From: Argiope bruennichi
Lineage: Eukaryota
NCBI RefSeq assembly: GCF_947563725.1
Contig: NC_079159.1
Span: 100,049,559-100,113,558, forward strand
Direction of reading: 5' to 3'
DNA: 64,000 bases
The first letter of the stretch is position 1, and each line of letters begins with the position of its first letter. The position numbers and the translations under genes are program-made. The notes beneath the pieces are model-generated. The model was not told the DNA's origin. It worked only from the letters and a program-made list of their open reading frames with translations, and searched no databases. Shown here piece by piece: positions 10,705 through 45,310 of the stretch.

Positions 10705-11010
10705 ATGTTTCCCGAGGGGTCATTGGAGCCACGGTGGCCTGGTGGGAAGGTCTTGGCTTCGGAACCGGAGAGTTTCAGATTCGAGGTCCAATTCCAGAGA
10801 AGAACCGTCGTGTAAGTGAGTGTGGTGTACGTTAAATCCGTCGGAGTAAACGTCTTCCAACTGGGGTGGTGTGGAAGTTTGGAGAGGGGGTGCCAGCTCA
10901 GGTGTCGTCCTCGACATCTGACTGCGGTTCAAAATTAAGAGGTATGTCTTAAAATAGTCCCAGTGTTGCTATAAAACGGGACGTTAATATAACTAAATTA
11001 AACCCGAAAG
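10705..11010 (+). mobile_element. tRNA-derived SINE-like element or tRNA pseudogene relic with a GC-rich body
   Basis: A-box-like tggcctggtgg and B-box-like agattcgaggtcc (compare GGTTCGANTCC). The spacing is too long for a true tRNA, and a unique GC-rich body follows inside AT-rich DNA. Confidence 0.4.
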
Positions 11011-12089
11011 GTCATCAATGTTCATTATCCACTTCCCTTTTCAAATCGAACCGTCAGCCTCAACACCTGGAATGATTTTTTTCTCACTAACTTGGAATTT
11101 TGAATATTCTAACATTATTATGCAACTTTTACTTATATTACTGTAGCTATTCTTCTATTATACTTTTGTTGAGAAAAGATACAGTTAATTAAAATTGGCT
11201 GATATGACTAAATTAATTTCATTAAATAAGCGTCTTTGGCGACGTTATTAATGACAACATTAACATATGTCGACGAATTTCGATGAAATACATCTTATCA
11301 AAATAAAAGAAATTCTTATTTTAAATTATGACTTCATAATAATTGTAGACAATTCAGATTGGTTAATTATACTTGAAAAGTGGCGAAATTAATTAGCTAG
11401 AAAATTGGCGGAAACGATCCAGTAGATTAAGATTATAAACACTGCCTAATTTTATTTTACAATATTTCTCGAAGATGGATATGGAGGAGACAGATGAAAA
11501 TTGATGTTTTAACAAAGAGTCATAATCTTTTATACGAAATAAAAATTGGCAAAATCAGTGCATCAGTTAATTTATTTAGGGACTGTGACAGGCAAACTCA
11601 ATCAAGGATATTCCAAACAGAGAATGAGCAGGGTAGTAAAGTTTTTGAAATTTCTTTCAGTTAGTTGGTTTAAATGTTTTTTTTTTTTTTTTTTTCTTAT
11701 GAGCTTTTATATTTTAACTATGCCGTCCATATAGTAAAACAGAACATTGTAAATTTTCTTTTAAAATCGAAAAAAATCAAATATAGTTATATATAAAAAT
11801 AAAACAGTTAAAATATGAAGGAAAATGATAGAAAAGATTTGTGCATTAAGAAAGAACAATTTTTTAAAAATGTATGGTATGGTATTAAATGTATGGTAAA
11901 AACTGTATAGCATTTAAAAATTTTTGAATGGCGAATCTTTCCGAGTAATTCAATAAGAGTTAAAGGCGGTAAATGAAAAAAGCAGATCAACAGCCAGACA
12001 TACATACAAAAACACTCATTGGCTTTCATTATTAGAAAAGATTAAGTAAATGTTGCATTTTTGAAAGATTTTTTTTTTTTTTTTTTAAG

Positions 12090-12228
12090 ATTTAAATGTT
12101 TGGAGGAAGATAACAAGGAAAAGGCATTTAATTGGATCAAGTATTGGATAGTGTTCTGCGCCTTCCATGCTGCTGAGCATTTTGGTGATAAATTCATATA
12201 CTGGTTACCTGGATATCAAATTTTCAAG
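12090..12228 (+). CDS. REEP5-like: REEP5-like exon 3: (S)FKCLEEDNKEKAFNWIKYWIVFCAFHAAEHFGDKFIYWLPGYQIFK
   Basis: Acceptor after a T15 tract at 12088-12089, phase 2 into phase 0. Strong similarity to REEP5 [41 protein letters not shown]. Donor aag|gtatgt. Confidence 0.8.
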
Positions 12229-13467
12229 GTATGTTTTGATTTTTATTATCATAGATTCTGCAGTATCGGGGGTAAGAGATTGAACCAAAAATAGAATTAA
12301 AATAAACCACTATATTCTTTTCCTTAAAAAATAAATAGTGCCTGTTTCCATAATAAGCGATCATCATAATGCCTATTTTCTGTGAATTGTAATGATATAT
12401 AAAAGAACAACAATAAACAAACAGAATCTCATTTATTTATAATTTATTGACATTAAATATCTAAAATTGATAATTCTTGAAAAAATTTAATTCCTTTCTA
12501 ACAATTATACTGGAAATTTTTGTAAAATTTGAAACTGTGAAGTGAGAATGCAAAGGATAAGGGCTTTCCAATGAGGTGTCACAATCTTAAATTAAAAACT
12601 AGTCGGGAAAAAAAAAAGCAGTTATTTTTCAACTTCAAAGACATTTTACTGACAAAGAATACAAAAGTTGTTTTTTATGATGAGGCAGCAATTCATCTAA
12701 TTAGAATTGTCCATCTACCCTCAATAGTAAGGGAGTTAGTTACGGGGAAATGAAAATTTCATCTCCGCACCATTTTCGCTCGCTGTGAGCCGGAGAGCTT
12801 CGCTACATATTCGGGCAAGATTTTCACCCTCCCTACAACATATACTCTCAAACTCAAATCGAAATTAGTATAAGTAATTTAGTATTACAAATTAGGTATC
12901 GTGTTCACAAAATAACACGGGATGAACTGTCTTTAGGGCTTCGCAGATTGAGCCCCGATTACACATCACAAAGGAATTTGCTTTTAACTCATTGTGTTTT
13001 GTGACCTTTTAATGCATTTGCTCCCAGTTTTGAAATACCCTGTATATTTTTCTAACACTTGAAATCAAACCTCGTTAAATTTACATTATATTTTTATGAT
13101 TAAGATGGCATTTCTAAATTTATAATTAGTTGTGTTTGATATACTAGTTTTCTTTAGGAATAGCAATGTCCGGAGTTGAGGAAGCTCTGTTCTCAAACAC
13201 TGTCAACTAATCACATAGCGGAATTTGTCTTAATTCTTTCATATATATATATATATATAAATCCTATTAATCTTATGATTTTATATATGAATGAATGAAA
13301 AAATTATTTAGACCCATATTACCTGAATTTACATTGCATAATAAAGATATTACTGGTTACATTTGTCTTTAATTCTGGCAAAAAACAAGTTCTTCAAATT
13401 GCATAAATGTGAATAATGATTATAATAATTTAATTTTTTTTTACATTTTTTAAATTTATAATTTCAG

Positions 13468-22830: not shown

Positions 22831-25800
22831 AATGAGATAAAGACGGAATAAGATTGTAGAGCTTGATTACTTTTATTAAGTTCCAAACTGTTCTGTTTTT
22901 TTATATTATATAATTAGATGGCCATTCATCTGAGAATTTTTGACAATTTAGTGTTTGTTAGTTTAATATTTGCGCCAAATTACAGCATCTTAAAATTGTA
23001 AGCTTTAGCTTAATAATTTGAGAAATGATAATCTGATTAATGGATTCGACAGCTAATCATTCATAGTAATTTGAAAAAGCACCAATAAATATTAAAATAT
23101 TCCAAAAGTCGAGTTTTTAGAAAGAGTTTGAATACAGCAAAAACTTAAAACTATTTCCAATACTCTAATTGAATGAAAAAAATTTAGATGGCACATTTTC
23201 AGTCTTGAAATATTATATATTATTGAATGTGATGTAAAGTTATACAATTTAAAATTGCATAAAACTGGAAGAAGACAAGTATATCTTAAGTGTTATTTGT
23301 TCTAGATCCAAATGCAACAGTGACATTACATTTTTACAATAGGTTTTGAATTCTTCAATGACATAAAATGCACTTCCTCAATTTTATTTTCAAAAAAGGA
23401 AAACAAAAAGAATTCAAAAACATTTAGATCAAATTTTAAACTGAAGATGCAAAAACTGCATTTTTGCATCTCCAAGCATGTTTTCATTATACTATCTCAA
23501 TTGTTGTTAATATAAAAATTTAAATTGAATATTACTTTAATATTCTTTTCTCTTTAAAATTGTCCTAAGATATTAATTGAGATAGGTTGCTATAAAAGAA
23601 AATAGACTTCATTTATTTGATACCTTATTTTCATTAATCAATGAATTATTTTAAACCAATAAAAATAAATATCATTGATATGACTTCTAATTCCTTTATA
23701 TTGAATAGATATTAAGAATGTAATTCTTAATAATGAAAAATAGTTTTTTAAATTAGATTAACAAATTTAAATAATTCTTAAAAAGACATGTTTTATTAAA
23801 TAAAATTATAATATTATTTTCTTCTTATAAAGTTATATATATATATTAATGCCTGGCTTTCTTTGTTAAAGCATGAGAGTATGGATGAAATATTGCTTGA
23901 TATGAATATTGCTTTTATGCCTGATTAGATAGGGGAGGGAGAATGAAGATTTCAAGAATGTATTAATCTATTGTAATAGTAATACTGAGGGCCTGAGTGC
24001 CTAGCTTTAAATCCATCCCTGGCTGATTTGATATAAAAATACAACATACCTTTGAATTGACCAATTAAATAAGTGAAATAAAATCTATAAAACTGAAAAA
24101 AAATTTTGATAGTGATTACACTTTTTGCATGCCTTAAACAGTGTTCAAGAAAATTTTTGAATTTCAAGTATGAAAAGTCAAGTAATCAGAGAATTAAGGG
24201 CTTCTATTTCAATTTTAAATATTATATTATTTATATTCTTTACATCATTAATAGCAATTTATGAAATTTAATATTAAATTTAAGAGAATATATTAAAAAC
24301 AAACCCATTCACTAAAGAAAAGCCTAGGGTCTATAACAGAAAACTAATGGTACTACATGAAATACCATACTTAACATCCTTAAAACTTTATAAATAAAAT
24401 GCTAATGTTCTTTTTAAAAATAAGGAAAAGTCTAACAGCGCCTATTGCCAATGCTATAGTTAGATCAGCACAGTCTAAATTGGTTTTATATTGTTTAATA
24501 TTGTTATATAATATATTGTTAAGATAAATTGTTTATAAAATAATAATCATATATCTTAAGACAAAAATTTCACATGTAATTAATCTAAATAATTTTTAAA
24601 AGTTTTTACACTTAGTATAATTTCCAAAAGCTATTTGAGATTATTCACATTAAATATTTAGTTATTTTCTGCTAGAAATATATTTTTAAATGTCTGCATA
24701 TTCAATAATTGTCTTGGCCTAAGATAGAAATAATGGTCCGTACCATTTATAAGAGTTTACAATCTTTTATAAATTATAATTCTATTCATAGTACATAACT
24801 AATTTTTATATTAAGTATTGTAATATTTTGATTTTATTTTTTTGGCTTTTGACAGAATTTATATGGCTAAATTTGATTTCTCATTTCAATTGTTAAATAT
24901 CTATATCACCAGCACAAATTTTCTCCCCACATGCATCAGCAACAATAAAATTTTTCAAAAAAAAAAAAAAAAAAAAAAAAATCTTATATAATTTCTTTTT
25001 TAGTAAAAATTATACTTTTTTAGTTACAAGTAAAAATAATTCTAATGCAGTTTCAAATATGATACAGATGAATCTTACAAGCAGAGAAAGAAGACAATTA
25101 AAACCATCAGAAAAATCAGGCATTATATAATAAAAAATAATTAATCAAAAGAATAATTTATTTTTTTCCAACACCATTTACAGTATTATTTCATTTGAAT
25201 ATTATTGATGAACAGAAAGTTCATATAATTCTACAGCTACCCAGTGTTACATACATAAATATATACAAGCTTTTGAAGATCAGTATGATATATTTACAAG
25301 CATAGAATTCAATAAAACATTCTTTCAAAAAAAAAAAAAAAAAAAAAAAATTCTGCAACAATTTTCTATAAAAACTATATAAATTTGGGAGAAAAAAAAT
25401 AGTGACAATTGTACAATTAGTTTTAAGAATATTTACAAAGAAATAAACATTTGATATCAGTCACTAATAAAAATCATATATAACATTTCATAAGGCATTT
25501 ACAATGTAAAATTCCAAAACTTGTATGAAGACTACTTTTAGATTATTTTTTGAAAATACAGTTTAAGTAATCTGAAAACAGCAAAATTAACAAAATATGT
25601 CAAAAAATATTCTATTTACAAGTTTGTTTTTTTAGAATGGTTTATGTAGATCAAAGTAATACATTTTTAATTATTACAATACAAACTGTATTTTATAACT
25701 ATATTAAATCAAATGACATCAGCAAGATAAATATCTTTATTGGTATGACTTATTAATAAGCATATTAAAAATAAACAAGCCCATTATATATTTACTTTTC

Positions 25801-26038
25801 TAAACATTTGAAGTCAACTTGGCTAAATTGAAAGAGTGAAAATTAAAAAAAGTTAATACATCACAATATGATAAGTCATCTTTCACATAAAGACAGTTTA
25901 AGTGGTTTTTAAGAAGCATCAGCTAGCTAGAAAAAGAATAAAAAACAAGATGCTTAAACTATCTACCCAAATAATATAAAACTAAAAAAGAAAATTCTAG
26001 GTATATTCTTGCCAAAGCTATAGACTTCATAAAAAACT

Positions 26039-27985
26039 TTATATTAAAAATGGCAAGCCTAACTTCCCTCTAGCTGGAGTTAAACCCGGCATGGTACCAG
26101 AAATATTTTTAATGGACTTCCTACTCCTTTTGCTTCTACTAGTACTCAAAGATTTCTTATTCTGACTGCAATTCAGGGATTTCTTATTTTTATTATTATT
26201 CAAGGATATCCTGGTTCCTCCTGGTTTGCGAGTTGCAAGTACAGAACTTCGTAAATTCCACCTTGATGTGCGATTCAATTCACTGGCAAAATCTGTATAA
26301 GTTGTACCATTTGGAGATGTTCTGGACTGAATTAAATTTTGTTGGTTCCTCTCCCTCAAAACCATTTTCTGATCTTTTCTTTGAATAGCATTAGGACGAC
26401 TAGTAAACAACCTAGTGACTTTAGACGTTGACTTCCCAGTAGTACTTGGTACCATTCTGGAGCTATGAGCTGCAGGAGTCTGAAACATGGATACGCCAGT
26501 ACTGGATTTAAGCATCTTGCTTGGAGCTGATTTGGGAGTTGTCATAAGAGGTCGTTTTCCCGGTGTTCCTGTGACATTTCCCAGTTGCAATAAATGTTGC
26601 TTGTGTCGTTCTTGTTTCTCATTTTCCTTTTGGTTAATTCGTTCCACCCATTGTTTGGTTACAACTTGCCTATAATCTTCACCATAGTATAAAAATGGTG
26701 AGCCTTTTTCCCTTTCGTATACTTCAATATCTTGGAAAATACTGTTTTCTAAAGCAGGAAGCTCTTTTTGTAGCCTCTTCCTTTCTTTTTCTTCCTGCAA
26801 CAAATTCCCTTTGCGATTTTTAAATCTATTTGGATCTGCTGCTTTATTTTCAAAAACAATCATCAGCTCCCACAGTTCTTTCCTCTTCTCTATTTTTTTA
26901 ATAATATGCTGAACATCTTCATAATAACTTTTCCATTTTTCAACTTCAGCCTCGTGAGCTTCCAGAATTTCATCTGTTGCTTCAGAACATGAAAAGTATT
27001 CAAATTGCTGTCTTAGAGTTTCTGAAACGTAACATTTATCCCAAAGATTATGCAATTCCTGACGAAGGGACCTAATAAACATTTTAATGTTATCTTTTTT
27101 AATTTTTTCACATCTTTCAATCTCCTCCTGAATAGATTTTATGGTTGAGAGACGATAATCTACATGATTTGATAAAAAAGTCACACGTTTGCTCTCATCT
27201 ATTTTAAGCCTTTCCCACAAGACATTCAGCTTATTCATCAATGTTTTCTTTTCAGTCTCCAACTCTATTTTCTTCTTCTTTGCTTTGTTGATGATTTCTT
27301 CTAAAGCTTTAAATGTTTCATTAGAAAGAGAAAAATTTTCCTTCTCTGACAAAATTTCTTTTTCAAGAGGTGTTTCTGGAGTCAATTCAGTTGTTTCCCA
27401 AATTGTAGTCAGTTCCTTTTTGACCTTGCACAATTTCTTATGACGCATTTCCTTTTCTTTTTTAAGCATGTCAATATGTTGTTGAAGCTCATCCAAATCA
27501 TTTTCCGATGGAACTCCAGTGTTAGAAGGAAGCTGGTGCTCAGGCATATTTAAAATTCGACAAAGCTGCAATTCAACATTCTTTAAATCTCTATATGATT
27601 TTAATCTCTTGTGTTTCAATTTAGATAAGCTATCTAATTCTTGACGCAACATTTCTTCTTGCTTAATCAGTGATTTGTCATTAATTTCTTTGGGTGATAT
27701 TGATAGAGCCTTTGACAATTCTTGTATTTTGACCTTAAAATTTTCAATACGCTCTTTGGTGTCATTACAAAAAGTGGTCTCCTCATCAAAAATATCATTT
27801 AAAAGATTTTTTATATGAACCCATACAGCTCTTGCTCTTTGTGCTTTTTGGTTGCTGTCAATACCAAAAATTTGCCAAACATCATATAATTTTCTTAAAG
27901 CTTCTTTTACATTCATAATTTCTGTATTTGCTATTTCCTCCAAAATTATTTCATCATCATTTGGTTGTTGGTTATCAGCATCCAT
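26039..27985 (-). CDS. PRC1-like: PRC1/Ase1/MAP65-family microtubule cross-linker (protein regulator of cytokinesis 1, fascetto-like). Complete 648-aa ORF with no interruption
   Basis: A 1947-nt ORF. LRKLYDVWQIFGIDSNQKAQRARAVWVHIKNLL parallels human PRC1 LNHLREIWELIGIPEDQRLQRTEVVKKHIKELL. NLWDKCYVSETLRQQFEYF, LWERLKIDESKR and PNRFKNRKGNLLQEEKERKRLQKELPALE match the PRC1 rod and spectrin-fold signatures (WDQCF, LWDRLQIPEEERE, PNRFTNRGGNLLKEEKQRAKLQKMLPKLE). There is a Ser/Thr/Lys/Arg-rich disordered C-terminal tail. Confidence 0.85.
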   Translation of the reverse strand: MDADNQQPNDDEIILEEIANTEIMNVKEALRKLYDVWQIFGIDSNQKAQRARAVWVHIKNLLNDIFDEETTFCNDTKERIENFKVKIQELSKALSISPKEINDKSLIKQEEMLRQELDSLSKLKHKRLKSYRDLKNVELQLCRILNMPEHQLPSNTGVPSENDLDELQQHIDMLKKEKEMRHKKLCKVKKELTTIWETTELTPETPLEKEILSEKENFSLSNETFKALEEIINKAKKKKIELETEKKTLMNKLNVLWERLKIDESKRVTFLSNHVDYRLSTIKSIQEEIERCEKIKKDNIKMFIRSLRQELHNLWDKCYVSETLRQQFEYFSCSEATDEILEAHEAEVEKWKSYYEDVQHIIKKIEKRKELWELMIVFENKAADPNRFKNRKGNLLQEEKERKRLQKELPALENSIFQDIEVYEREKGSPFLYYGEDYRQVVTKQWVERINQKENEKQERHKQHLLQLGNVTGTPGKRPLMTTPKSAPSKMLKSSTGVSMFQTPAAHSSRMVPSTTGKSTSKVTRLFTSRPNAIQRKDQKMVLRERNQQNLIQSRTSPNGTTYTDFASELNRTSRWNLRSSVLATRKPGGTRISLNNNKNKKSLNCSQNKKSLSTSRSKRSRKSIKNISGTMPGLTPARGKLGLPFLI

Positions 27986-29655
27986 AATGATGCACTAAAA
28001 CATATGTCCAGGAATCTGTGTAATACCTATTAAAAAAATGGAATAATTTCAGATTTTGGCTGTTAAATAAAACAATTGCAAATCCACATTAAACAATGAT
28101 AGTCATTTCATTTTTAAAAAGACAACCTTTTAACTAAAAATCAATCAATAAATAAAAAATGAGAACGTTAGAACAACTTAATTTCTTAGTTATTTTGACA
28201 ACTGTATTCATAATATTAATTGCTCTCAGGCTGGCTAATACCTTATATTTTCATCTGATTAATATTTAAAATATTAGTCCCCTTAAATTAACTAAATAAT
28301 AATTTAAATATTAATATAATTATTATTGAATATTTAAAAAATTTAATATCTTTTGTTAAAAAAATAAGTCATTCTGTATGTAGTAAAAATATAAAGAAAA
28401 AACTTTAGAAAGAATATTTTAGATTTAAAAAAAACTATTAAGAAATAAATAAAAGAAACTTTAAAACAACAGACTGTTTGATTACACATTTTTAGTTTTT
28501 ATTTTCTTACTGACGCTCAGAAGAAATATGTTTAGACTAGTTATATCAGCAGATTACATTTATTTTTTTATATAGGAGGACATTAATACTTCTTTCCTTA
28601 ATAGTAAACTGTTATTGATTACATATGAGCAGATGTGTGTTTGTGTCCACAAGTTGCTAAATCTAGAAAAGTTTGTTTCCAAAAATCACTATTTCCCTAC
28701 TTAAGTAACCAAAATGAATTTATATAGAACTATAAAATAATATTGGTTTTATATTCAATTGAGAATTAATATTTTTTAAAAAAAGATGATTCTACACTAT
28801 TTTTCCTCCTACTTTTCCTTGAAAGTCTTTATAATTTTTTCTGAGAGAAAGTTAAACACTCTAAGCCTTCTCTAATTATTGTTCAGATATCTAATTCACA
28901 ATTGAAAGAAATTTCTGAGGAAAGTAAAAAGGTTACAGTGGTTACAAAGGAAAGAGTAAAAGGTTACTTTTTCACAATAAATCCTTTCTTTTGTTGTAAT
29001 TATTTTAGCAACTGAGTACTTATACATATTTTCAGTAAAGAAGATTTAACGGAAGAAAATTCATTTAATTTTATTTTGATCATATTAAAACCTAATTTTA
29101 ACAACTTTTATAATTAATTAGCCACTTAATCAAATGAGATTATAATAAAAAATGTTATAAGCAGTCATAATGCATATTTTATAATAAAAGTTTTTACTCA
29201 AATATTCCTTAGAATTTATTTTTAGTAAATATAAAAAGATAGACTAATGAAATTTGGCATGTAATTTTTATATCAAAACTGTAAGCTAGAATCAAATTTT
29301 AAAAGAATTTCATAAATAGAAAGATTCTTTATCAGCTTGTCTATGTGAATGCAATAATTCAAATCTATACCAAACTAGATTAATGAATCATGAATCTTTA
29401 GACACTCAACTGTAGTTTAGGGTCAGACAAGATTATGGTACAGTCAGGAAAGCAGATTTTATAATGCTATTTCATATGAAATGTGGTAATCCTGATTTCT
29501 TGTGACTATTTGAGTCGGAAGAATTTTGGGAGGTATTTTTCAATTATCTGTATTTAAAGATTGTATTTTAAATCTTGCCTCATTTTAATAGTCAATTTTG
29601 TACCAAAATTAATCAAAAGAATGGCACTATTCCAAAATAAATATACTCTCTCCTA

Positions 29656-29660
<5 letters not shown>

Positions 29661-33938: not shown

Positions 33939-34153
33939 ATGTTGCTGACATTATGGGATTTGTATACAATCAATAAGGAGCAATCATTCAGAGTTATATT
34001 TTATGATTTTAAAAGTAAGCATATATTAAATTTTGAACAAAGTCAGTCATACATTGGTAAAGTTTCCAAGCTGTTGAACTCTACATCTGCAGCACAATCA
34101 GTTATTGGGTGCTTTATTAGCCCAGGATTATATTTATCATGTATTATTCTTGG
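33939..34153 (+). CDS. AASDH-like: AASDH/ACSF4-U26 homolog, putative exon 1 (MLLTLWDLYTINKEQSFRVIFYDFKSKHILNFEQSQSYIGKVSKLLNSTSAAQSVIGCFISPGLYLSCIILG)
   Basis: Begins with ATG. IGCFISPGLYLSCIILG parallels the human AASDH N-terminal IGLYCQPGIDLPSWILG as I recall it, and the spacing from the Met is similar. Possible donor gg|gtacga at 34154. The following exons up to 39681 are not resolved. Confidence 0.45.
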
Positions 34154-37100
34154 GTACGAATTGTTTATCAATTATTTTACATTGACATATTATAAAGATA
34201 ATTGTATTTTGCCTTTTCTGAGATTTTGTAGATTAAAAAAAAAATTAACAAAATTTTATACCTTATATTAGTTATGCTCCTTTTACATAGAATTTATACA
34301 GGATTTTTTTCATCAATTGCAATTTTATTAGAAATCATAAATTGTCTGCTAAATAAATTGGTAAAAATTCTGTTGTTATCACATTTTTAATTTTGAGTAT
34401 TGATTATTCAAAAATATTTTATGGTACTTTCAATTGACAAGCAGTTTATTTTTTGAATAATATCAATTTTTTCCAAACTTATTGCGCTTGTTGATTGATT
34501 GAATTTTTGAATTGTAAATTCATAAATAGTTGCTTTTTTTGAATTGTTTAAATCAGTGACCAGAAAACAGTAATTAAGCTTTCTATTACGAGAAAGGATT
34601 TTAACTTTTTTTGTAATTGTGATCATCTTGTTACTTAGCTTCCATTACATATTTATATATATTTATATTGCAGAATAAATTATATAAGGGAAATGTATTT
34701 TATTCTATTTTTACATTTATTTAGTAAAAAAACAAGCTAAATTCTGAGTGATATCATTATTTGCCTGCAATATATCAAAATAAGATAAAATAGCGGGCCT
34801 GAATTGAATTATTACAAAATTCATTTGAAAAATCTTCATTATCTTTAATACTTGTCTATTAATCACATATCAGTGATTTATCTCCAAAAAAGAATAATCT
34901 AAGATGTTATATTTACTGTCAACAGTGATTAAATGCAAAAAAGTCATTAGTGATATGCTAGTCTATGCACTATATTTGCCACTGACATGTGTTTAAGACT
35001 GAAGTTTGCCAATGACATGCAGTTAAACTAACAACCTGTAATCATGTACCTATTTTTTTTCATAAAAATTCTACTGTATGAATAGCAAATCGATTTACTG
35101 ATAATTTATAAATTAATAGTTCCTTAAATATATATATATGCTGGTCCCTTTACATCCCATCCTCCTGGAAAGCTTCGTGGAACAAAATTGTAAACAATTT
35201 ATCTACTAGTACATTGTTTCTATGATGCAGACGATTTTATAATCTGTGTAAATATAACAGGCATCTCAAGGTCACATTTTCTATTTGTCATAGCTGTTAA
35301 GGTGTTACAGTAGTTTTTTGCATAATCCCTCTTGGCGCATGTATTACTGTTTGATCTCTTGCCATTTGTTCTTGATCGTTTGTTCATTTTTACGAAATAG
35401 TGCTAAAGAGTTTGTTTTTTAAGCTCTGCTCATGAATTGCTCTGATGTCAGGAGACAATCAAAGATGGTATCTACAATGCATACAGTTATTTAAGAGAGT
35501 TGGGAGTCATCTAAGAAAATGGTAAAAGTATTGTTTTTACAGATGCAAAAAGTAATTATCAAAATGTTTAGTGTTTCCTACTGAACAATGCAGCAAATTT
35601 CAACAGAGGCAATTATGACAATAGCTGTTAAAGTTATAAATAGTATTTCAATTTTCAAATCACCCAAGTAAAGAAACCCACAAACAAAATCTATTACAGA
35701 CTTGAATGATTTACATAAAAGCATTGAATACCAAACTGTACTAGAGTTTTATAACAGAGGTGAATAATCAGCATTGGTAAAATTAAGAGCTTGCTTAATA
35801 GAAAAAATTAACTTTTCTGGATGCATAGAATCATTGTAGATGATTGAAAAATTTAGGATTTTCTTACAAAATGTGCAAATTTTTAATGAAAGAAATAACA
35901 TTTTTGTTTCTCATATTTTTGAGAAAAATGAACAATGTGAGAAATGATTCATTATCCAGGCCAGTGATATATCTTAATGAAACTTAGGTAAATGCTAACC
36001 ATTCATCTAAATTTATTTGGCAAAGTTCCACTAGCTAAGGAGACTTAAAAGTTGTATTGGGGAAGGAGTCTAGATTGATCATTTGTCATGCCAGATCTAC
36101 TGATCAAGACTTTATTATGTCCACACAACTTGTATTTCAATTAAAAATTACAGTTGACTATCATGAAGTGATGAATAATGAAGTTTTAAAAAAAGTGATT
36201 TCTCAATTTACTAAGAAGATTGGGCAGTGACTGAAAAAAAATGTGTAATGCATGCAATGAAATTATAAGAAGATGACTTTGTTAAATCTAGTGCTGGAGA
36301 GGATGCAATTAAAAGGATTATTATCATTTTACAAGATTACAGTGAAAGCAGTTTTAGAAAAAGATTAAAGAAAGATAAAATGCTTTAAGCTGAGAACTTC
36401 TAAATTAGTGATTTTTATGCTGATACTCCTTTTATTTCTTTCAGAATGAAACATGTAATAATTTACCCTGATGATGATAACTATATTTGAATGTATATGC
36501 ACTTATTTTTTAAATATATGAATTTATTAAATATATGTGCTATTAAAAGTATATGTTTATTAAACTAAAATATATCTTTATTGAACTTTTTTTAAAATTC
36601 AAGATCTTATTTTTGCATAATAGAGTAATTATTCCTGCATATATTGAACCTAATTTTTCATGTTTAGATAGTTTTGTAAATAATTAATATTTGTAATGAT
36701 AATATGTAGATTTTTTAATTGCAAAACTTCTTTTTTTTTTTTTGAAAAAGTGTAAGAACAATTGGCTTAATATATAATGCCCAGCATTTATAATTGTTCT
36801 ACAAGATTTAAAAGTAAAATTTTCATTATTTTTTTAATTTACTGAAAAATATATCTCAAAAGATAAAAAAAAAAAAAATGAATGAAATTATTTGTTTACA
36901 TTGCCATTTCCAATTTTAATGACAAAAATATTTATGCTAAAATATTTATAAAGCCCTTTTTAAAATATCATAAAAACTCATTATGATATTAGTATAGTAT
37001 ATTTTTGTAACATATAAGTTTTCAAATAGTAGCTAGAATATCCATTTTTTTTTTCTATTCCAACTTCTAATTGAAATATACTGATATGGGGAAAAAGTAA

Positions 37101-38459
37101 GATTTGTCGAAACCATGTTAACGGAGAAGGGGAGTGGGAAAATTCTGTGACCTTGAAATGCTATTTTATTTGTACAGACTATAATATATAATTAGTGAAT
37201 TTTCTTTTAGTATTTATTAATTATCAAACACTAGATTTTACCTCTTTTCATTACAGACCTCATCATTCACAATGTAATTGTACTTGTTATTCAGCTTCTG
37301 TATTTAATTAGGTATCTCTATTTTTATTCCTTGAAAGAAAATAGTTATTTGAACTATATAATTTAAGTGTTTTTTTAATTGATCAAGATTATCACAAAAG
37401 CATAGATAAAAATTAGTAAGAAAGAAAGATAAATAGAACTTGTTTGTAAAGAAATTAGACTGTACTCAGTGTTGAGTAATTTGGTTTGTTTAATGTTGTA
37501 ATTGCCAAAGCCTCAAGTTCTGTTGTGCTGCCTCGTCTTGGCAGAAGGAATATTTGTTGAGGATTGCTCAAGGTGTGAAAGCCATTCCACTTTACCCAGT
37601 TAAAGAGAGCTGACACTTGGAGCTAAGTCAGTCTTCTTCCTTGATGCCCTATGTTTTAACCATTTGAAAATGTTCTTTTCTGACTCCATGATTTTGGCAA
37701 TTTATGAATTTATAGAGATGATCTAGCAAAGGTAGACTATCTATGACTAGTAAGAGTTTGAATAACCATCTGTAACTAGTAATTTATAAGTTTATCTTTG
37801 TATTAAGAAGTAAAGGCTGATTTTTAGTTTTACTGAGCTATCAAAATATTAATCCAGGCTCAATTTTTCTTTACAGAATTTTAAAGGTCCAATCTGCTTT
37901 TGTATTTTTGAATGTACAGAAACCCTGTGCTTCCTTGAACAATATTCAAAATTATGTTCCTATTAAAATTATATTAGTTGAAGGATCATTTTTTGAGGTA
38001 ATTTGTTTATTCCATTTTTATGAATTTCAAATGATTATTTATCTTTTTTTTAAAAAAAATATAAGGATATGCTTGCATTTTTAAAACATTAAATATTTTT
38101 ATGCATGTCTGCAAACTTCTCTTAATTGCATTTAATTTAGTAATTGCATTTTCTTAATTATAATTATTTCTAATATTATACAAAACTGCATATTTATCAC
38201 TTTTTTGTAAAATATCTTATATGTTGAAAATTTATAAAATATTGTCATATATGTATTGTACATCATAGAAAAATTTTATTTGAAAATTTAACTTAACATC
38301 TTGAAGTGTATTGAAAATTTATAGCATTTGACAATACTGAGCCAAAAATTTATGCAATTGGTAGATTTATTACTTATTTAACTATTTAGTGACTTTTAAC
38401 TATTTTCATTATTAGCTACCCTTGTCAAACAGTTAGTTCTCTGGGGAAATTGGTTGTGT

Positions 38460-38900
38460 TTACTTTCAATTAAGTTTCTTATGCATAATTTAATGTTCAT
38501 GATTCTGCCGATAACATATTTTTAAGCATTAATTTGTGACAAATATTAAAGCTGTACCTTATATCTTTTATTATGTATGCAATTCCTAAAGAATCAAGTC
38601 TCATGATATCATAATACTATTAAATACTGTCTGAATAATCTATCATTTAATTTCCTTTTACTATAACTTAAGTTCCTTATACTCATATAAACTACATAGA
38701 TATTAAACAGAATCTTTTTTCCTTAGCAAAATGGAAGAAAATCAGGCAATTAAATATTTGGTGCAATAATGAAAATCGTTTTAATTTCAAAACAATAACA
38801 AAATTTATTGTTGGTTGTTGTAAAAAATATTTTTTTAAAGTTATCAAATAAAAAAAAACTGCACAACATTTCTGTTAAAAAACCAAAATTTTAAATTAAA
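38460..38900 (+). repeat. Dispersed AT-rich repeat family, copy R3 (5-prime truncated)
   Basis: catgattctgccgataac, ctcatgatatcataatact and aaaatggaagaaaatcaggcaattaaatatttggtgcaataatgaaaatcgttttaatttcaaaacaataac blocks shared with R1 and R2. Confidence 0.45.
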
Positions 38901-39681
38901 AATAAAAATTAGTACAAAATTTAAAAAATAAAATAAATTATAACAATACTCGTGGGAGTTTTCACAGAAAAATGCTAAAATAATTAAAAATTGCTAATTT
39001 CTAACTAATTAAAATTTTGAAAAACTTGCTCTAAGTTCCACATTATCAATTTCCAAATATGATGTTTCTGTCAATTTATAATATTAAATTTATTTTGAAA
39101 CTGATTTTATTAATTTCTTTGTTAGTAACTAATTTTTTTTTCTCTTTGAAATATGAATGTCAAAATATGATATGAGGTTTTAAGGGATGTTATTTTTACT
39201 TATTAGACTTATCTACAAATTAATATATTGTCTGTTTTTTTATTTATTAAATTTTTTTTTTCAATTTATGTACCTTTATACTTTAAATTTGACATAATAA
39301 ATAATAATATAGTATATTGCTTTCATGAATTCAATATTTAAAATAACATGAAAAGAAAATGTCATTGCTTTTTGGAAGTGTAAATTAAGATGTTGATGTA
39401 GAAAATTTTATCTTTTGATTTATTTATCATCCATATTAGATTTTATAATTTTTTTCCTGTTAAATAATAGTATCTTATTATATAAAATTCTCCAATTTAT
39501 GATACTCTATAAATATCAGATATCACCCAAGGATAAGATTATATTACATATGCTCTTTTTAATCTGTTTGATCATTAATATGTTCTGCATTTTCTAAAGA
39601 TAATAATTTCAAATAATATATGGTTAAATTCAAATGTTTTGATTTTATATTATTATTATAAGGATGAATATTTCTTTGTAG

Positions 39682-39932
39682 ATAGTAAAGAAAGACCTGT
39701 GTACTTGCTGGCATGAAGAAAATAAAATTCTGTTAGATAACTTTTCAATAATTATTCTCCAGTCATCAAATTGCTTCAATGACTTGTGTTCTAATTCAAA
39801 GAAAATCTATTCAAATTTTTTGAAAAATGTTTCTGAATTGGCTTATGTAATTCAGACATCTGGTACAACTGGAGAACCAAAGATTATACAAGTGCCTCAC
39901 AACTGTATTGTACCAAATGTTTTAGATCTGAA
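39682..39932 (+). CDS. AASDH-like: AASDH-like exon carrying the adenylation-domain core motif A3: …KNVSELAYVIQTSGTTGEPKIIQVPHNCIVPNVLDL(K)
   Basis: AYVIQTSGTTGEPKII parallels human AASDH LAYVLHTSGTTGIPKIVRVPHKCIVPNIQ and the ANL-superfamily motif (Y/F)xxYTSGTTGxPKG. Donor aa|gtaagt at 39933. The 5-prime boundary is ambiguous: the acceptor is at 39680-39681, or in frame at 39761-39762. Confidence 0.75.
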
Positions 39933-41497
39933 GTAAGTATTTCATTTTTGTAACTATGTCATGCATAACTATTATTATGGTTTTTTTTATTTAATAGCTT
40001 TGTACAAATAAAGATAATACTGTTGAAATATATCTAGAGTTTATTTTAAAAAATCAGTATTCCTATTTATGTAACATTAAATCATGCGACCTTAAATTTC
40101 ATATGGGAATTAAGGGCTTCAAAATTTAATTTAAAAAAATCTGATAATCTTGATGTTATAAAGTCTCTCAAAAATTTATTTTTTAAAGAAATTAATTGTG
40201 ATATAAAAGTAATTCTGTAGTTTGAATATTTATAACATATAATTATAAATTGAAATCATTTGCCAAAATTCAGAAAATTAATAAATCCCTAATAAATATC
40301 TTTCATAAAATAATGAATATCTTCAAATAAGATTACAATAGTTTAATAATGGCCATGAGCACCGACTGGTGATAATTTTTATGTATTTTTATTATATTAT
40401 GGATTTAGTTATTTGATATTTCAAGCAACATTAAATTGATGACCTCAAGACAATGTGATCCATAGACTGTTAAATTTAAAATTCATTTGTTTTTCAAACA
40501 TTAACCTGTGAAAAATGATTTTGATATATATATCCAGTATATTTCCATGTATAATAGAAGAGTTTTTGGAATTTCTATGGGGAGGGCTTATATATGTATC
40601 TGGTAATCTCACAAAAACATTGATACATTTTAATTAGCTGGGCCTAAGTGATGAATTGCTGAAAATCGTAAAATATAGTTTATTTTATTTCTATTGTTTA
40701 TATTTCTTAAGAAAAATTCATTTTAAATTAAATGAGTTATTGTGCCTTTGAAAATGAATTTTTTTACTTTTTAAATTATGATTTCTGTTTTATTGTGGTG
40801 GATAGAGAGCTTATAAAGAAAGAATGAGGATCCATGCTGCTATTAGACTACAAAGACTATTACTATAGTTTGAAATTCACCATATAAGAATTTTTCTTCT
40901 CACTTATCTTTCAAATAAAAAATAAATGGCATAGAAAATAAAACTAGCGTAGATTATAAGCAAGATTGTAATGAATGGGAAAAAAGTTAAAATTATCATC
41001 ATTGGTATCATTTCTGATTTATTTTATAGCATCATGATTGGAAAATGTTCCACCTGTTTTACATACCGAGCAATATTTTCACCCTCATGGTGACATACTT
41101 GAAAGTCACAGGATTACTTTTTAAAATTTAATTTCGTCTTATATATGGGTTTTGAATTTAGGTAAATTTTTGAAGAAAAAAATTTTCTTAATGTATATAT
41201 GAATAAGATTATATTAGAAAATATATGATATATTTAATATTTTTTAATCAAAGATTTTATTAATAATCAATCATTTTATTTCTTCCTTATTTATCTTTGA
41301 AAAAAAAAGGCCAGTAAGTAGGTTTAGTAAAGGCCAAGATTATTTTTGCATTTTTTGAAGAAATATACCTATAATGCATTTTAAAATGTATATTAATTTA
41401 CCTTTAAATATATATGTGCAAGTTATCTATGTATATATGTATGTGTTATCATACTTTATAATTAACCATATTTTTATTTAACCTATTTCTCTTTTAG

Positions 41498-41687
41498 ACG
41501 AAAATTCAATATTACTTCAGAAGATAGAGTGATGTTATGCTCACCATTAACGTTTGATCCTAGCATTATTGAAATCTTCCTTGCTGTTTCAGCTGGCTGT
41601 ACTTTGATAATCATACCTAATCAGTTGAAAAGTATCCCAAGAAAACTCAGTGAAGTCATCATTAATAGCAAAGTTACTGTACTTCAG
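41498..41687 (+). CDS. AASDH-like: AASDH-like exon, A4-A5 region: (K)RKFNITSEDRVMLCSPLTFDPSIIEIFLAVSAGCTLIIIPNQLKSIPRKLSEVIINSKVTVLQ
   Basis: Acceptor ctcttttag. TFDPS motif. Parallels human FDITQEDVLFLASPLTFDPSVVEIFLALSSGASLLIVPTSVKLLPSKLASVLFSHHRVTVLQ. Donor cag|gtagat. Confidence 0.85.
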
Positions 41688-41986
41688 GTAGATAACAATT
41701 CAAAAAATACAACTAAAACTATAATTTGACTGCTGTTTTGTAAAGTAACAAAATTTTCTTATATAATAGTTAAGAAAAAAGATTTAAAAAACATTTTATT
41801 TTCTTAATAGCTCCATGTACCAGATTTTTCTGAGAAAAATGTAGATTATTTTTAAATATCTTTTATGATTTTTGTAAATGGCTTTTTTTTCCTCCTTAAA
41901 ATATTTCTTTGTTATTTTGTTTGGGTTTTCTCTTTCATTTTTTAAAATTTGTATTTATTTATTTTACCCTTTTTTTTAATTTCTAG

Positions 41987-42213
41987 GCTACTCCAACTCT
42001 TATTCAGAGTCTTGGAGATGATTTTATAAAAGGTGTTCTTTTATCGGAGAATTCTAATTTACGAATTTTGGCTTTTGGTGGTGAACCTTGTCCTTCCATA
42101 GATAAAATAAAAAGGTGGAAAGCTAAAAATAATAAAACAAAAATTTTTAACCTTTATGGATTAACAGAAGTTTCTTGTTGGGCAACATGTTTTGAAATAA
42201 ACTTAGAAAAAAA
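41987..42213 (+). CDS. AASDH-like: AASDH-like exon: ATPTLIQSLGDDFIKGVLLSENSNLRILAFGGEPCPSIDKIKRWKAKNNKTKIFNLYGLTEVSCWATCFEINLEK(K)
   Basis: Acceptor ttctag. FGGE and YGxTE adenylation motifs. Parallels human ATPTLLRRFG…LRVLALGGEAFPS…IFNVYGITEVSSWATIYRIPEK. Donor aa|gtaagt (phase 2). Confidence 0.85.
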
Positions 42214-45200
42214 GTAAGTGAAATAACAAGATTATCCATTGTTCAGTTTTAATTAATATAGGATTGATGTGAAAATTATTAAAAAAATACTTTTCAACTT
42301 TAATAATTGGAAAAAGTAGAAGAATTAATATAATAATTAGGGGATTTTCCAAATCAGCTAATTAGTATACTGATTCTACCAATTTCTACAATTATTATTA
42401 AATATTTATAAGCCCCTTTCCAATTCCTAGTTACTCTGACCAACCTTAACACACTTAAATCAAGTTACTTTCCAAATAATAGAGATGCTTGAATTTAAAT
42501 TTATCTTTATGTTAAGTATTTTTCATGATTGTCTATATATTTTGCAGGTAATATAGTTAAAACTTACTTGAAATAATTGAACTTTTTAAAATGATTTGAC
42601 ATATTCCTTGTATATGAATAAAATATGATTGATTAATTTTGCTTAGTTGTAATGGAGCAATTGTAAACTTTTTGAAAATTTGATTACAAGTTACTGTGTT
42701 ATGTAATGAAGTAATTGTAGCTGCATATTTTATTCAATTTCATATAAAGAATTTGCCTTTATTTTTTTTATTTGAATGGCAATTAATAATCTTAGGAATT
42801 TTGAGACTATAATGAAACAAAATAACTGCTATTGTGCATTTTGTTGATGTTGGTACCAGAAATGATTTGTAAACCTCACATTAATTATTGACTCATTTGT
42901 GTTCCTTTGCCTTCTTTGAATTAAACCTGTGAAAGTGCATTCTTCAAAACTTTCTTGTAAATTTTATAATAAAGATGATATCTCAGAGAACATCTTGAAT
43001 GGTATTTGCATATAATAGTTATGAAATAATAAAAATTTGACATGGCTTTAGCATTTTTTTTAAATCTGAGCTATCTTTCATGGGTTTTTTGGTAAAGAAT
43101 CCTTTGCATGCAGTTAATAGTATTCGAAAATCAAATTTTTGTTTTTGATGGGTTTTTCCTAATAAATTGAAACAAAAATTTAACACACTACTAGAGTTGT
43201 GGTCATAAAATTCCATACCAAGTTTTGTTTTTGAATTATCTTATTTACATTTTTTTAAAATTACAGTCTGACAGATGGTCAACCATTTGTTGGATTTGGC
43301 TCAAAATTTGGTAGGTGTCTGTACTAAAAATGTTAAATTTGTGTACCGAATTTTGTCTTCTTTCTTTGATTTGTAGTCATTCTATTAACTTATATTTGAA
43401 CAGCTGGACAGACAGGTTTTGCCTGAATGGATTTTACACAAAATTTGATAGAAATCTATAAATTAGGTGTAAAAACCATGTGCAAAATTTCATCCATATT
43501 CCTCAAAGTGTTTTTGAGTTATCTTTGTGACAGACAAACAAACAGACAAGTATGACACCAAAAATGTATTTTTTGAACTCAGAAAAATCTGAAATGTTGA
43601 GATTCATCAAAATCTTGAGTTTGAATTTTTTTGATGATTACAGTACTTTCTCTATACTTGTTATATGAAAAACTAAAAAGTTATGTTTATGGCTTAAATT
43701 AGATTGTGGTTAAAATATATATTCCTAATTTAATTTAGTTAAATTTTAGCTACTCTTTTGTTTTTCATATTCAGAATTTTTCTGTGATTCATTTGAATAT
43801 GGGATTCTTATGGATCTGTTTATGGTCTGTTTCAAGTTTGTTTTAGAAAATAAAATATTATATTCTTAAATTGAAAGAAAAAGTTAAACTTGGTAAGAAT
43901 TCTGTATGGTCCTTTGAAAAGAGATCCTCTCTTTGCAAAATCCGGAGTTTACTAAATGCCATCGTTTGCCATTGAGCATATCGTGTTTAGTTGTATTAAA
44001 TGGAAATTTTAGTTAAGAATGTGTAAGAAATCTATAACGTTTTTATTATGCCCTTCAAAAATTTCATGATAATTTTCAAAACTTTTCTACATTTCAAACT
44101 GTAATTAAAATATTCTTGATATATGATATGTATATTCTATAAAGTGAAGACCCTAAATTTTCTTTTTGAAGGGAAAAAAAAACTAACTAACCTACTTTCA
44201 AATTTAGTTGAAATTTTAAAATAATATATCAAGAAGTAGTATGTCTTAGTGATGCTGGCCTAAGACCCTTCTGAAATTAAAGTATAAATAAATTTACACA
44301 AACAAATATTATCTTATTTGTACTTTGGATATAGTTAATTTAAATGATATTCAACATCTTTTCCTCGACTCTTTTTATTAAATCTTATTGCAACTGAAAA
44401 GTGTTCACATATAATGAATTTTATGTGGAGGAATTTGTGCTCAGAATAATTAATTGTATGATGTCAAATATTTATAAGGATTAAATTATAAGTTTGTAAA
44501 ATGCTTGTAATGATTTGATCTCAAGTACAGTTTCACATATGAAGTAATTTTTTTCTTTGTTGCACATGCCATTTACATTAAAGTAATGATATTGTTTTTA
44601 ATATATTTAAGTACTAACTGCCTGTGGTGACCAGTTGGTTTGACTAAAATATAGACTGTACTTGATTTTATGTAAATCTCTGATGCATAAATTACTATTC
44701 AGTATCAAATTACAGAGTATTCAGTTCAGTAGAGTATTTTTATTTTAAGATAATTGTTTAATTAGCTTTATTTTAGGTGCTTGCATCTACCCAGCTGTTT
44801 GTGTGCATGAACCTACCTAATAAAGTTAAATCACATGTCCAAATCTTATGAAAATTGTAAATGTCTGCATGGTCCATCATTTAGTTCAACTTAACCTGAT
44901 CTAGTATTGTATCTTCATTTTCTCATTTCTCTTCAAATTGGTAGGGCATAATTTAGATATATTATGTGAGCATATTCAGTAGAACTTTATTTGCGCAATC
45001 TAATCAAAAAATTAAAGAACAATAAATATAACCATTCAGCATAGCAATTTTATTTTGTGGTAAATTTGATGTTATAGTGTGCTATATTTTTAGATTCCAT
45101 ACACACAAAAAATGGTATAATTAAAAATGGAACTTTTGAATTTTAAAATTATATATATATATAAACGACTATAACTGAATATAATAGTTATAAATTAATT

Positions 45201-45230
45201 TTAAAGAACTTATTTGTTATAAAATTAAAG

Positions 45231-45310
45231 GTACCATTTGCCATCTATTCCTTTGGGTGAACCTCTTTTGGATACAGTTATTGAAATCATTGATGGTGAA
45301 CTTTCTGTGG
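45231..45310 (+). CDS. AASDH-like: AASDH-like exon: (K)YHLPSIPLGEPLLDTVIEIIDGELSV(G)
   Basis: Phase is consistent. IPLGEPLLDTVIEIID parallels human LGFPLLGTVVEVRD and the A-domain PIGxPxxNT motif. Donor tgg|gtaagc. Confidence 0.75.

What the first reader, a model, noticed from the sequence alone, without database searches (positions are those of the whole stretch)
26039..27985. Intron-free, full-length PRC1/MAP65-family gene sitting head-to-head with an intron-rich neighbour
A 648-aa uninterrupted ORF carries clear PRC1 signatures: a dimerisation helix region, a spectrin-fold rod and a basic, S/T-rich tail.

Both flanking genes (REEP-like and AASDH-like) are split into many small exons with kb-scale introns, so a 1.95-kb single-exon coding region stands out. 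It could be an ancient retrogene that replaced or duplicated the parental cytokinesis gene, or simply an intronless lineage-specific architecture.

The A-runs at 24955-24980 and 25327-25350 are on the wrong strand to be its retro-tail. They would be T-runs in this gene's mRNA. So there is no retroposition hallmark beyond the intron loss.

The ATG at 27985 is about 5.9 kb from the AASDH-like ATG at 33939 on the opposite strand. That suggests a shared or bidirectional promoter region at 28000-33900.
Basis: partly seen in the sequence, partly recalled or inferred. Interest (0 to 1): 0.5.

Follow-up and report, generated by a model that had tools for sequence, protein, structure and literature searches.

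The report
Spider PRC1 gene with single coding exon
This is the ordinary, functional wasp-spider copy of the cytokinesis gene PRC1; its uninterrupted coding region is shared by all ten spider PRC1 genes I examined, so it is an old inherited gene architecture and not a recent retrogene.

Summary
Window 26039-27985 (-) is an uninterrupted 648-codon ORF encoding a full-length PRC1/MAP65 protein (Pfam PF03999, 316 bits; human PRC1 structure E=2e-71). It is 100% identical to Argiope bruennichi KAF8774451.1. It lies between a REEP-like gene and an AASDH/ACSF4-like gene, both split by kb-scale introns.

It is not a locus-specific retrogene. All 10 spider PRC1 genes examined have a single-exon CDS. 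They come from 7 species and 4 families, and cover three araneid paralog groups and two Parasteatoda paralogs. All 22 spider PRC1 proteins form one clade (100% bootstrap). Isoform evidence suggests tick, sea-spider, priapulid and crustacean PRC1 genes have introns in the CDS.

So the CDS introns were most likely lost once, before entelegyne spiders radiated, and the gene then duplicated. The gene is under strong purifying selection (dN/dS 0.08 against Larinioides) and has a conserved ~0.9-kb 3'UTR. It has no poly(A) remnant and no target-site duplications.

All ten loci carry a splice-acceptor-like site 17-60 nt upstream of the ATG (combined p~3e-6). The gene therefore probably has a 5'UTR intron and is not truly intron-free.

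Low interest: annotated gene, lineage-typical architecture.

The parts
26039..27985 (-). Complete PRC1/MAP65 coding sequence (648 codons + TAA), single exon; araneid paralog 'A'
   Evidence: 100% identical to A. bruennichi KAF8774451.1; dN/dS 0.077 vs Larinioides ortholog
27986..28026 (-). 41-nt 5'UTR segment of the coding exon, from the predicted splice acceptor to the ATG (inferred)
   Evidence: Conserved with Larinioides. In-frame TAG 12 nt upstream of the ATG, read directly from the sequence shown, so the CDS does not extend upstream in this exon
28027..28046 (-). Predicted 3' splice site (ttattccatttttttaatAG|G): polypyrimidine tract + AG, putative end of a 5'UTR intron (inferred, no RNA evidence)
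   Evidence: an equivalent site is present in all 10 spider PRC1 loci
28048..28093 (-). 46-nt block, 83% identical to Larinioides, upstream of the putative acceptor; function unknown (intronic or regulatory, or core promoter if there is no intron)
25070..26038 (-). Conserved 3'UTR (~0.9 kb). Collinear conservation with Larinioides at 25700-26038 and 25070-25484. AATAAA at 25741 and a conserved AATAAA at 25162. Argiope-specific 24-nt T-run (mRNA sense) at 25327-25350
33939..60423 (+). Neighbour: AASDH/ACSF4-like multi-exon gene, divergent from PRC1 (context only; extent approximate)
4340..12294 (+). Neighbour: REEP-like (TB2/DP1/HVA22) multi-exon gene, convergent with PRC1 (context only; 3' end not mapped)

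Best explanation
This is the functional Argiope bruennichi 'A' paralog of spider PRC1. PRC1 is the homodimeric crosslinker of antiparallel microtubules that organises the anaphase central spindle. SHOWN: the protein is full-length PRC1 (dimerisation domain, rod, spectrin-fold microtubule-binding domain with the DPNRF-NR-GNLL-EEK-R motif, basic S/T-rich tail with CDK-type TP-x-KR sites). It evolves under strong purifying selection. Its single-exon CDS is shared by all ten spider PRC1 genes examined, and spider PRC1s form one clade. INFERRED: (1) The CDS introns were removed once, in a stem lineage predating the entelegyne radiation, most likely through an RNA/cDNA intermediate. (2) The resulting gene already had 'non-coding exon - 5'UTR intron - one coding exon' and was then copied by DNA-level duplication. 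That gave the araneid A/B pair (same chromosome in A. bruennichi), group C and the lineage-specific pairs in Uloborus and Stegodyphus. (3) The transcript here runs from an unmapped upstream non-coding exon, splices into 28026, and ends near 25130 after the conserved AATAAA at 25162. Biochemical function (antiparallel bundling, CDK1-gated activity, kinesin-4 recruitment) is inferred from established knowledge of PRC1/Ase1/MAP65 and was not tested.
For: Family and domains. Identity and annotation: (KAF8774451.1; RefSeq XP_055949096.1). Single-exon CDS verified by translating genomic DNA for Lscl_A, Lscl_B, Ptep P0008, Tclavata_A, Npil_C, Udiv 1 and 2; for Sdum_1 and Ptep P0078 by the look-up's own check that the gene translates to the protein, plus gene length = 3 x aa + 3. 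Spider monophyly 100%, group A 100%, A+B 96%, group C 100% (300 NJ bootstraps). Purifying selection: dN/dS 0.077 (dS 0.79) vs Larinioides, 0.089 vs Trichonephila, uniform over domains. Orthologous locus: continuous nucleotide conservation 28093..25700 plus 25484..25070 with Larinioides. Outgroups appear to have CDS introns: Nymphon isoforms are 100% identical except for one internal 27-aa block; Ornithodoros has X1/X2 isoforms; Priapulus has X1-X4 of 637/627/618/608 aa; Oratosquilla has X1/X2. 5'UTR intron: an acceptor-like site 17-60 nt upstream of the ATG in 10/10 loci. A strict rule passes 6/10 against 12.7% background. PWM-based empirical p-values combine to 3e-6, or 3e-5 with group A counted once. 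Stegodyphus P0014 and Parasteatoda P0078 each carry three RefSeq XP accessions with identical protein on a single-exon CDS, so the transcript variants must differ in UTR exons. Context: mean exon 200 bp and mean intron 4,035 bp in this genome (PMC7788392). Chelicerate gene families that are mono-exonic or have a first exon that is 5'UTR only are described and interpreted as retroposition plus re-exonisation (PMC11752866).
Against: No RNA-seq was available, so the splice acceptor, TSS and poly(A) site are predictions. The PWM was a generic metazoan one from my own knowledge, and individual loci are only marginal (p 0.001-0.22). Outgroup intron content is inferred from isoform differences, not from gene models, because look-ups were exhausted. 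Named sampling covers only entelegyne spiders. Mygalomorphs, Synspermiata, scorpions and horseshoe crabs were not identified. Only the best 150 of 745 strong hits of the exhaustive search were listed, so a very divergent intron-containing spider PRC1 cannot be excluded. Synteny with REEP/AASDH in relatives could not be tested: no neighbour exons lie within the 10-kb flanks. Deep relationships among the paralog groups are unresolved.
Confidence: 0.85

Rival explanations
1. Locus-specific (young or araneid-specific) retrogene: a processed PRC1 mRNA inserted between the REEP-like and AASDH-like genes, duplicating or replacing an intron-containing parent that still exists, or recently existed, in Argiope.
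For: Uninterrupted 1.95-kb CDS in a genome with 200-bp mean exons; intron-rich neighbours.
Against: Orthologs and all paralogs across 4 spider families have the same single-exon CDS. The other A. bruennichi paralog found (B) belongs to a group that is intronless in Larinioides. There is no poly(A) remnant: the nearby homopolymers are on the wrong strand and one is an Argiope-specific expansion of a 6-nt run. There are no TSDs. Flanks are conserved with Larinioides.
Confidence: 0.03
2. Ancient retrogene replacement: in a stem spider a processed PRC1 cDNA inserted at a new locus, recruited an upstream promoter through a newly acquired 5'UTR exon and intron, and the multi-exon parent was lost. 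Later paralogs are DNA copies.
For: All CDS introns are absent in every spider copy, while outgroups show isoform evidence for CDS introns. Retrogene replacement is documented elsewhere (amphioxus SYCP1, PMC5803294). Acquisition of 5'UTR exons by retrocopies is described for chelicerate families (PMC11752866).
Against: No hallmark survives. It cannot be distinguished from in-situ loss without outgroup synteny, and no parental relic was found.
Confidence: 0.4
3. In-situ cDNA-mediated intron loss: recombination of the ancestral gene with a 3'-primed, incomplete reverse transcript erased all coding-region introns. The 5'-most (UTR) intron and the native promoter were kept.
For: The inferred structure, with only a 5'UTR intron retained immediately upstream of the ATG in all ten loci, is the pattern expected from the classical reverse-transcriptase model of intron loss, which spares 5' introns (my own knowledge).
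Against: Same limits as above. The acceptor is predicted only, and it is not known whether outgroup PRC1 genes have a 5'UTR intron at that position.
Confidence: 0.35
4. The gene is truly intronless. The polypyrimidine-AG motifs upstream of the ATG are promoter or 5'UTR features (for example initiator-like CAG), or AT-rich chance matches, and transcription starts within ~100 nt of the ATG.
For: Conservation with Larinioides stops ~108 nt upstream of the ATG, as expected for a compact promoter. Several per-locus p-values are weak (0.06-0.22). No upstream exon could be located.
Against: The combined signal is p~3e-6. 8 of 10 sites have G at +1, read from the site sequences listed. A 38-nt indel is tolerated just upstream of the tract between Argiope and Larinioides, while the tract, the AG and the downstream sequence are conserved. 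Multiple RefSeq transcript variants share identical single-exon CDSs in two species.
Confidence: 0.2

Closest known systems
Human PRC1 (structures 4L3I/4L6Y, 3NRX, 5KMG, 7VBG) and the MAP65/Ase1/Feo family
   Same: Same domain order and length. Alignment spans residues 17-478 (E=2e-71). The spectrin-domain motif DPNRF-NR-GNLL-EEK-R-LQK is conserved. The basic S/T-rich tail begins with TP-x-KR CDK-type sites.
   Different: The human gene is multi-exonic (about 15 exons, my own knowledge), whereas here the CDS is one exon. Spiders carry 2-4 paralogs per species. There is a spider-specific conserved C-terminal motif, RGKLGLPFLI.
Spider PRC1 paralogs already in public annotation (e.g. XP_055949096.1 and XP_055949658.1 A. 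bruennichi; XP_015921548.1, XP_042903473.1 and XP_042895209.1 Parasteatoda; XP_035212870.1 Stegodyphus)
   Same: Same family, same single-exon CDS, same acceptor-like site just upstream of the ATG.
   Different: This copy is the araneid 'A' paralog. It is 87% identical to Larinioides A and 52-55% identical to group B.
Retrogene replacement (e.g. amphioxus SYCP1, PMC5803294) and chelicerate mono-exonic families with a non-coding first exon (tick SULT clade C and serpins, PMC11752866)
   Same: A single-coding-exon gene stands in for a normally multi-exon essential gene, with no multi-exon copy detectable in the lineage. There is a possible secondarily acquired or retained 5'UTR intron.
   Different: No direct evidence of retroposition here (no tail, no TSD, parent locus unknown). 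The event, if any, is ancient and shared by the whole spider clade.

Membership tests
PRC1 / MAP65 / Ase1 family | Match to Pfam PF03999 above the gathering threshold over the full profile | tested here: met
   316.1 bits vs cut-off 26.9; profile positions 2-474 of 477
PRC1 / MAP65 / Ase1 family | N-terminal dimerisation domain | tested here: met
   Residues 16-79 align to the human PRC1 dimerisation-domain chain 7vbg_A, E=1.5e-5, and lie within the 4l3i alignment. This is sequence homology only; no structure was predicted.
PRC1 / MAP65 / Ase1 family | Spectrin-fold microtubule-binding domain with the conserved basic motif | tested here: met
   Residues 351-464 align to 3nrx/5kmg, E~4e-22. The DPNRFKNRKGNLLQEEKERKRLQK motif is aligned to the human one. 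The lowest dN/dS of the protein is here, 0.051.
PRC1 / MAP65 / Ase1 family | Basic, disordered C-terminal tail with CDK phosphorylation sites | tested here: met
   aa 471-648: pI 12.0, S+T 27%, K+R 20%; TPGKR at 474 and TPKSA at 483. Phosphorylation itself is not testable here.
PRC1 / MAP65 / Ase1 family | Selective bundling of antiparallel microtubules and midzone localisation | not testable with these tools
   Requires biochemistry or imaging
Retrogene (processed retrocopy) at this locus | Intronless copy with an intron-containing parental gene in the same genome or lineage | tested here: not met
   The CDS is intronless, but no intron-containing spider PRC1 was found among 22 spider proteins, and 10/10 loci examined are single-exon
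Retrogene (processed retrocopy) at this locus | 3' poly(A) remnant on the gene's strand | tested here: not met
   The downstream homopolymers are T-runs in the mRNA sense. One lies inside the conserved 3'UTR and is only 6 nt in Larinioides.
Retrogene (processed retrocopy) at this locus | Flanking target-site duplications | tested here: not met
   Only imperfect AT-rich matches of 17-31 nt at 77-88% identity; none bracket the transcript ends convincingly
Retrogene (processed retrocopy) at this locus | Absence of the insertion at the orthologous site in related species | tested here: not met
   Larinioides has the orthologous gene with collinear conserved flanks. Trichonephila, Nephila, Caerostris and Araneus have group-A orthologs.
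Bidirectional promoter pair (PRC1 / AASDH-like) | Divergent TSSs less than ~1 kb apart (my own knowledge of the usual definition) | tested here: inconclusive
   The orientation is divergent, but the ATGs are 5953 nt apart. TSSs are unknown, and the intergenic region is not conserved with Larinioides.

The most novel reading that the evidence does not exclude
The sole PRC1 gene of a stem spider lost all its coding-region introns in a single RNA-mediated event, either retrogene replacement or in-situ cDNA recombination that spared a 5'UTR intron. This processed form of an essential cytokinesis gene then gave rise by DNA duplication to the 2-4 paralogs seen in modern spiders. These may be subfunctionalised, for example between mitosis and meiosis or early cleavage.
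Probability: 0.55. Interest if true: 0.3.

Novelty: already known. Interest (0 to 1): 0.2.

Why it matters
It matters little for this locus. The gene is annotated (KAF8774451.1 / XP_055949096.1), is a typical PRC1, and its exon structure is typical of its lineage. The family-wide pattern is a modest evolutionary curiosity: an essential, normally multi-exon cytokinesis gene exists only in processed, single-coding-exon form across spiders, and was then amplified. It would be a tidy example of ancient RNA-mediated gene restructuring in an otherwise intron-rich genome (mean intron 4 kb). For annotation, 'single-exon CDS' should not be read as 'intronless gene', because a 5'UTR intron is likely.

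Tried and rejected
1. Exact look-ups of the window protein and of A. bruennichi paralog B (P0015) found no record, so Argiope's own paralog locus could not be read.

2. The look-up of the sea-spider protein P0074 used the last slot and found nothing, so outgroup gene structure is only inferred from isoforms.

3. Synteny: tblastn of all window ORF pieces, and of AASDH/REEP exons, against the 10-kb flanks of nine relatives' loci found no neighbour exons. Different genes flank the paralogs: MRP-L47; ACAD and MRM3; adaptin; ECH.

4. A sensitive blastn search for a conserved upstream non-coding exon or promoter between window 28094-36000 and the Larinioides and Trichonephila flanks gave only non-collinear AT-rich noise.

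5. I tested whether the two A-runs, each preceded by AATAAA-like sequence on the + strand, mark + strand retroposed elements. Rejected: the region is unique in the window and all loci, and is orthologous to the Larinioides 3'UTR.

6. TSD search: nothing convincing.

7. The word-indexed profile search did not reach non-spider chelicerates. The exhaustive search did.

8. P0078 (second Parasteatoda paralog) looked like a candidate intron-containing parent. Rejected: it is also single-exon.

9. Pseudogene: rejected by the intact ORF and dN/dS 0.08.

10. A literature search for intronless PRC1 found only Polycomb PRC1 papers.

11. My early note that the Argiope A and B paralogs lie on different chromosomes was wrong. 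The 124-Mb and 131-Mb contigs are the same chromosome in two assemblies.
Full report
**Observation.**
- It is by far the longest ORF in the window; the next is 152 aa.
- The window's stop-trinucleotide frequency is 0.074, so 648 consecutive sense codons have a chance probability of about 2.5e-22.
- The ORF is also a GC island: 34% against 25% in the 5 kb on either side.

**Family.**
- Pfam MAP65_ASE1 scores 316 bits (cut-off 26.9) over essentially the whole profile.
- The protein aligns to human PRC1 over residues 17-478 (4l3i, E=2e-71).
- Separate hits cover the dimerisation domain (7vbg, residues 16-79) and the spectrin-fold microtubule-binding domain (3nrx/5kmg, residues 351-464).
- The tail (471-648) has pI 12.0, 27% Ser+Thr and TPGKR/TPKSA sites at its start.

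**Source and neighbours.**
- The protein is 100% identical to Argiope bruennichi KAF8774451.1. RefSeq has XP_055949096.1 for the same gene.
- REEP-like (TB2/DP1/HVA22, E=3e-12) exons lie on the + strand at 4340-4507 and 12061-12294.
- AASDH/ACSF4-like exons lie on the + strand from 33939 to about 60400 (Beta-prop_ACSF4 E=1.7e-37), spaced 1.3-8 kb apart.
- PRC1 is divergent from the AASDH-like gene (5953 nt between the ATGs) and convergent with the REEP-like gene.
- In this genome the mean exon is 200 bp and the mean intron 4,035 bp (PMC7788392). A 1,947-bp coding exon really does stand out locally.

**Is it a retrogene at this locus? No.** I fetched the genomic loci of nine other spider PRC1 genes:
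- Larinioides A and B
- Trichonephila clavata A
- Nephila pilipes C
- Parasteatoda P0008 and the divergent P0078
- Uloborus 1 and 2
- Stegodyphus dumicola 1

In every case the gene length is exactly 3 x aa + 3 and the look-up reports that the gene translates to the protein. For the first seven I also re-translated the genomic DNA myself. With the window, that makes 10 of 10 single-exon CDSs, from 7 species and 4 families (Araneidae including nephilines, Theridiidae, Uloboridae, Eresidae).

An exhaustive profile search of 1.84 billion representatives plus name look-ups found further spider paralogs (a third Parasteatoda gene, and Oedothorax). It found no candidate intron-bearing lineage. P0078 looked like a possible parental gene but is also single-exon.

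**Phylogeny.** In a 31-taxon NJ analysis with 300 bootstraps:
- All 22 spider proteins are monophyletic (100%) relative to a tick, a sea spider, crustaceans, insects, a priapulid, a mollusc and a bird.
- Group A, which contains this gene, has 100% support.
- A and B are sisters at 96%.
- Group C has 100% support.
- Uloborus and Stegodyphus each have their own lineage-specific pairs (100% and 97%).
- Deeper relationships among the paralog groups are unresolved.

**Outgroups.** I could not read outgroup gene models because the look-ups were exhausted. Isoform data indicate introns within the CDS:
- The two Nymphon striatum proteins are 100% identical except for one internal 27-aa block.
- Ornithodoros turicata has X1/X2 isoforms.
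- Priapulus has X1-X4 (637/627/618/608 aa).
- Oratosquilla has X1/X2.

None of the spider entries shows protein-level isoforms. The parsimonious reading is a single loss of all coding introns before the entelegyne radiation, followed by duplications.

**Function and constraint.**
- dN/dS is 0.077 against Larinioides (dS 0.79) and 0.089 against Trichonephila. It is similar across the N-terminal part, the spectrin domain (0.051) and the tail.
- Nucleotide conservation with the Larinioides locus is continuous from 108 nt upstream of the ATG to 340 nt past the stop. It resumes for a collinear block at 25070-25484.
- That gives a constrained 3'UTR of roughly 0.9 kb ending shortly after a conserved AATAAA at 25162.
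It corresponds to a 6-nt run in Larinioides, so it is an Argiope-specific expansion and not a retro-tail.
- No credible target-site duplications flank the unit.

**A refinement: probably not intron-free.** All ten loci have a polypyrimidine tract followed by (C/T/A)AG, and 8 of 10 are followed by G. The site lies 17-60 nt upstream of the ATG.
- In Argiope the site is ttattccatttttttaatAG|GTATTAC. The first exon base is 28026, 41 nt before the ATG. It is conserved in Larinioides despite a 38-nt indel just upstream.
- Under a strict rule, 6 of 10 loci pass against a 12.7% background at random anchors.
- With a generic 3' splice-site weight matrix (my own knowledge) and per-locus empirical nulls, Fisher's combined p is 3e-6. 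It is 3e-5 when group A is counted once.
- Independently, Stegodyphus P0014 and Parasteatoda P0078 each carry three RefSeq XP accessions with identical protein. Their CDS is one exon, so those transcript variants must differ in UTR exons.

I therefore infer a conserved 5'UTR intron. The upstream non-coding exon and TSS could not be located, because nothing beyond 28093 is conserved with Larinioides or Trichonephila. If correct, the shared 'UTR intron + one coding exon' structure argues that the paralogs arose by DNA duplication of an already processed gene. Repeated retroposition would have erased that intron.

**Origin of the processed architecture.** Two RNA-mediated routes fit the evidence, and I cannot separate them.
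- Retroposition to a new locus with loss of the parent. Retrogene replacement is documented, for example for amphioxus SYCP1 (PMC5803294). Retrocopies that gain a non-coding first exon are described in ticks (PMC11752866).
- In-situ recombination with a 3'-primed cDNA, which classically spares the 5'-most intron (my own knowledge).

Outgroup synteny and outgroup 5'UTR structure would decide between them.

**Bidirectional promoter.** The divergent orientation is real. However, 5.95 kb between the ATGs, an unknown TSS and no intergenic conservation give no support for a shared promoter.

**Verdict.** What remains is an annotated, conserved and selectively constrained spider PRC1 paralog with a lineage-typical single coding exon, plus a modest family-level story of ancient wholesale intron loss followed by duplication. 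Interest is low.

Noticed in passing
window 20325-21517 (-): Remnant of a hAT-family transposase. The ORF at 20325-20603 matches the hAT C-terminal dimerisation domain (PF05699, E=2e-6). Adjacent ORFs on the same strand (20604-20918, 21182-21517) are probably fragments of the same element.
   Followed up: partly
window 15420-17298: Inverted duplicate structure. ORFs 15506-15673(+) and 17110-17298(-) encode near-identical peptides, as do 15890-16087(+) and 16723-16893(-). They flank an ORF (15939-16199, -) with a Tc1/mariner-like 'FQQDNDPKQ' motif. This is likely a DNA transposon with long terminal inverted repeats. Pfam gave no hit for the central piece.
   Followed up: no
window 10689-10968; L004 18749-18876; L005 14589-14686, 15145-15222, 16545-16646: A short interspersed repeat in the REEP-like gene's intron. 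It has multiple copies near PRC1 paralogs of Trichonephila clavata and Nephila pilipes, so it belongs to a repeat family shared across araneids.
   Followed up: no
window 24940-24994 and 25310-25364: Two 55-nt segments 82% alike, each 'CAATAAAA..TTTC' followed by a ~24-nt A-run on the + strand, 370 nt apart (D1). The upstream one lies in the conserved PRC1 3'UTR, where Larinioides has only 6 T. The downstream one lies beyond the conserved block. Their origin is unexplained (homopolymer expansion or a small local duplication).
   Followed up: partly
window 28048-28093 (-): A 46-nt block 83% identical to Larinioides. It sits upstream of the predicted splice acceptor and is separated from it by a 38-nt indel. 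It could be a branch-point or intronic regulatory element, or the core promoter if there is no intron.
   Followed up: partly
A. bruennichi chromosome carrying the window (not in the window): The sister paralog B (KAF8773043.1 / XP_055949658.1, 612 aa, 52% identical) lies on the same chromosome as this gene. The two Uloborus paralogs are also on one chromosome, 6.3 Mb apart. This is consistent with intrachromosomal DNA duplication.
   Followed up: partly
spider PRC1 C-termini (window 26042-26071 encodes RGKLGLPFLI): All spider PRC1 proteins inspected end in a conserved RGKLGLPF(L/I)(I/M) motif. It is absent from the priapulid sequence P0035 and from the six unnamed non-spider representatives inspected (P0063-P0068). 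An unnamed Logan sequence (P0087) ends in a similar ALPFLF. The function of this terminal motif is unknown.
   Followed up: no
window 13636-13812 and 29561-29731: Dinucleotide microsatellites, (AC)n and (TA)n, show up as THTHTH and IYIYIY ORF translations.
   Followed up: no
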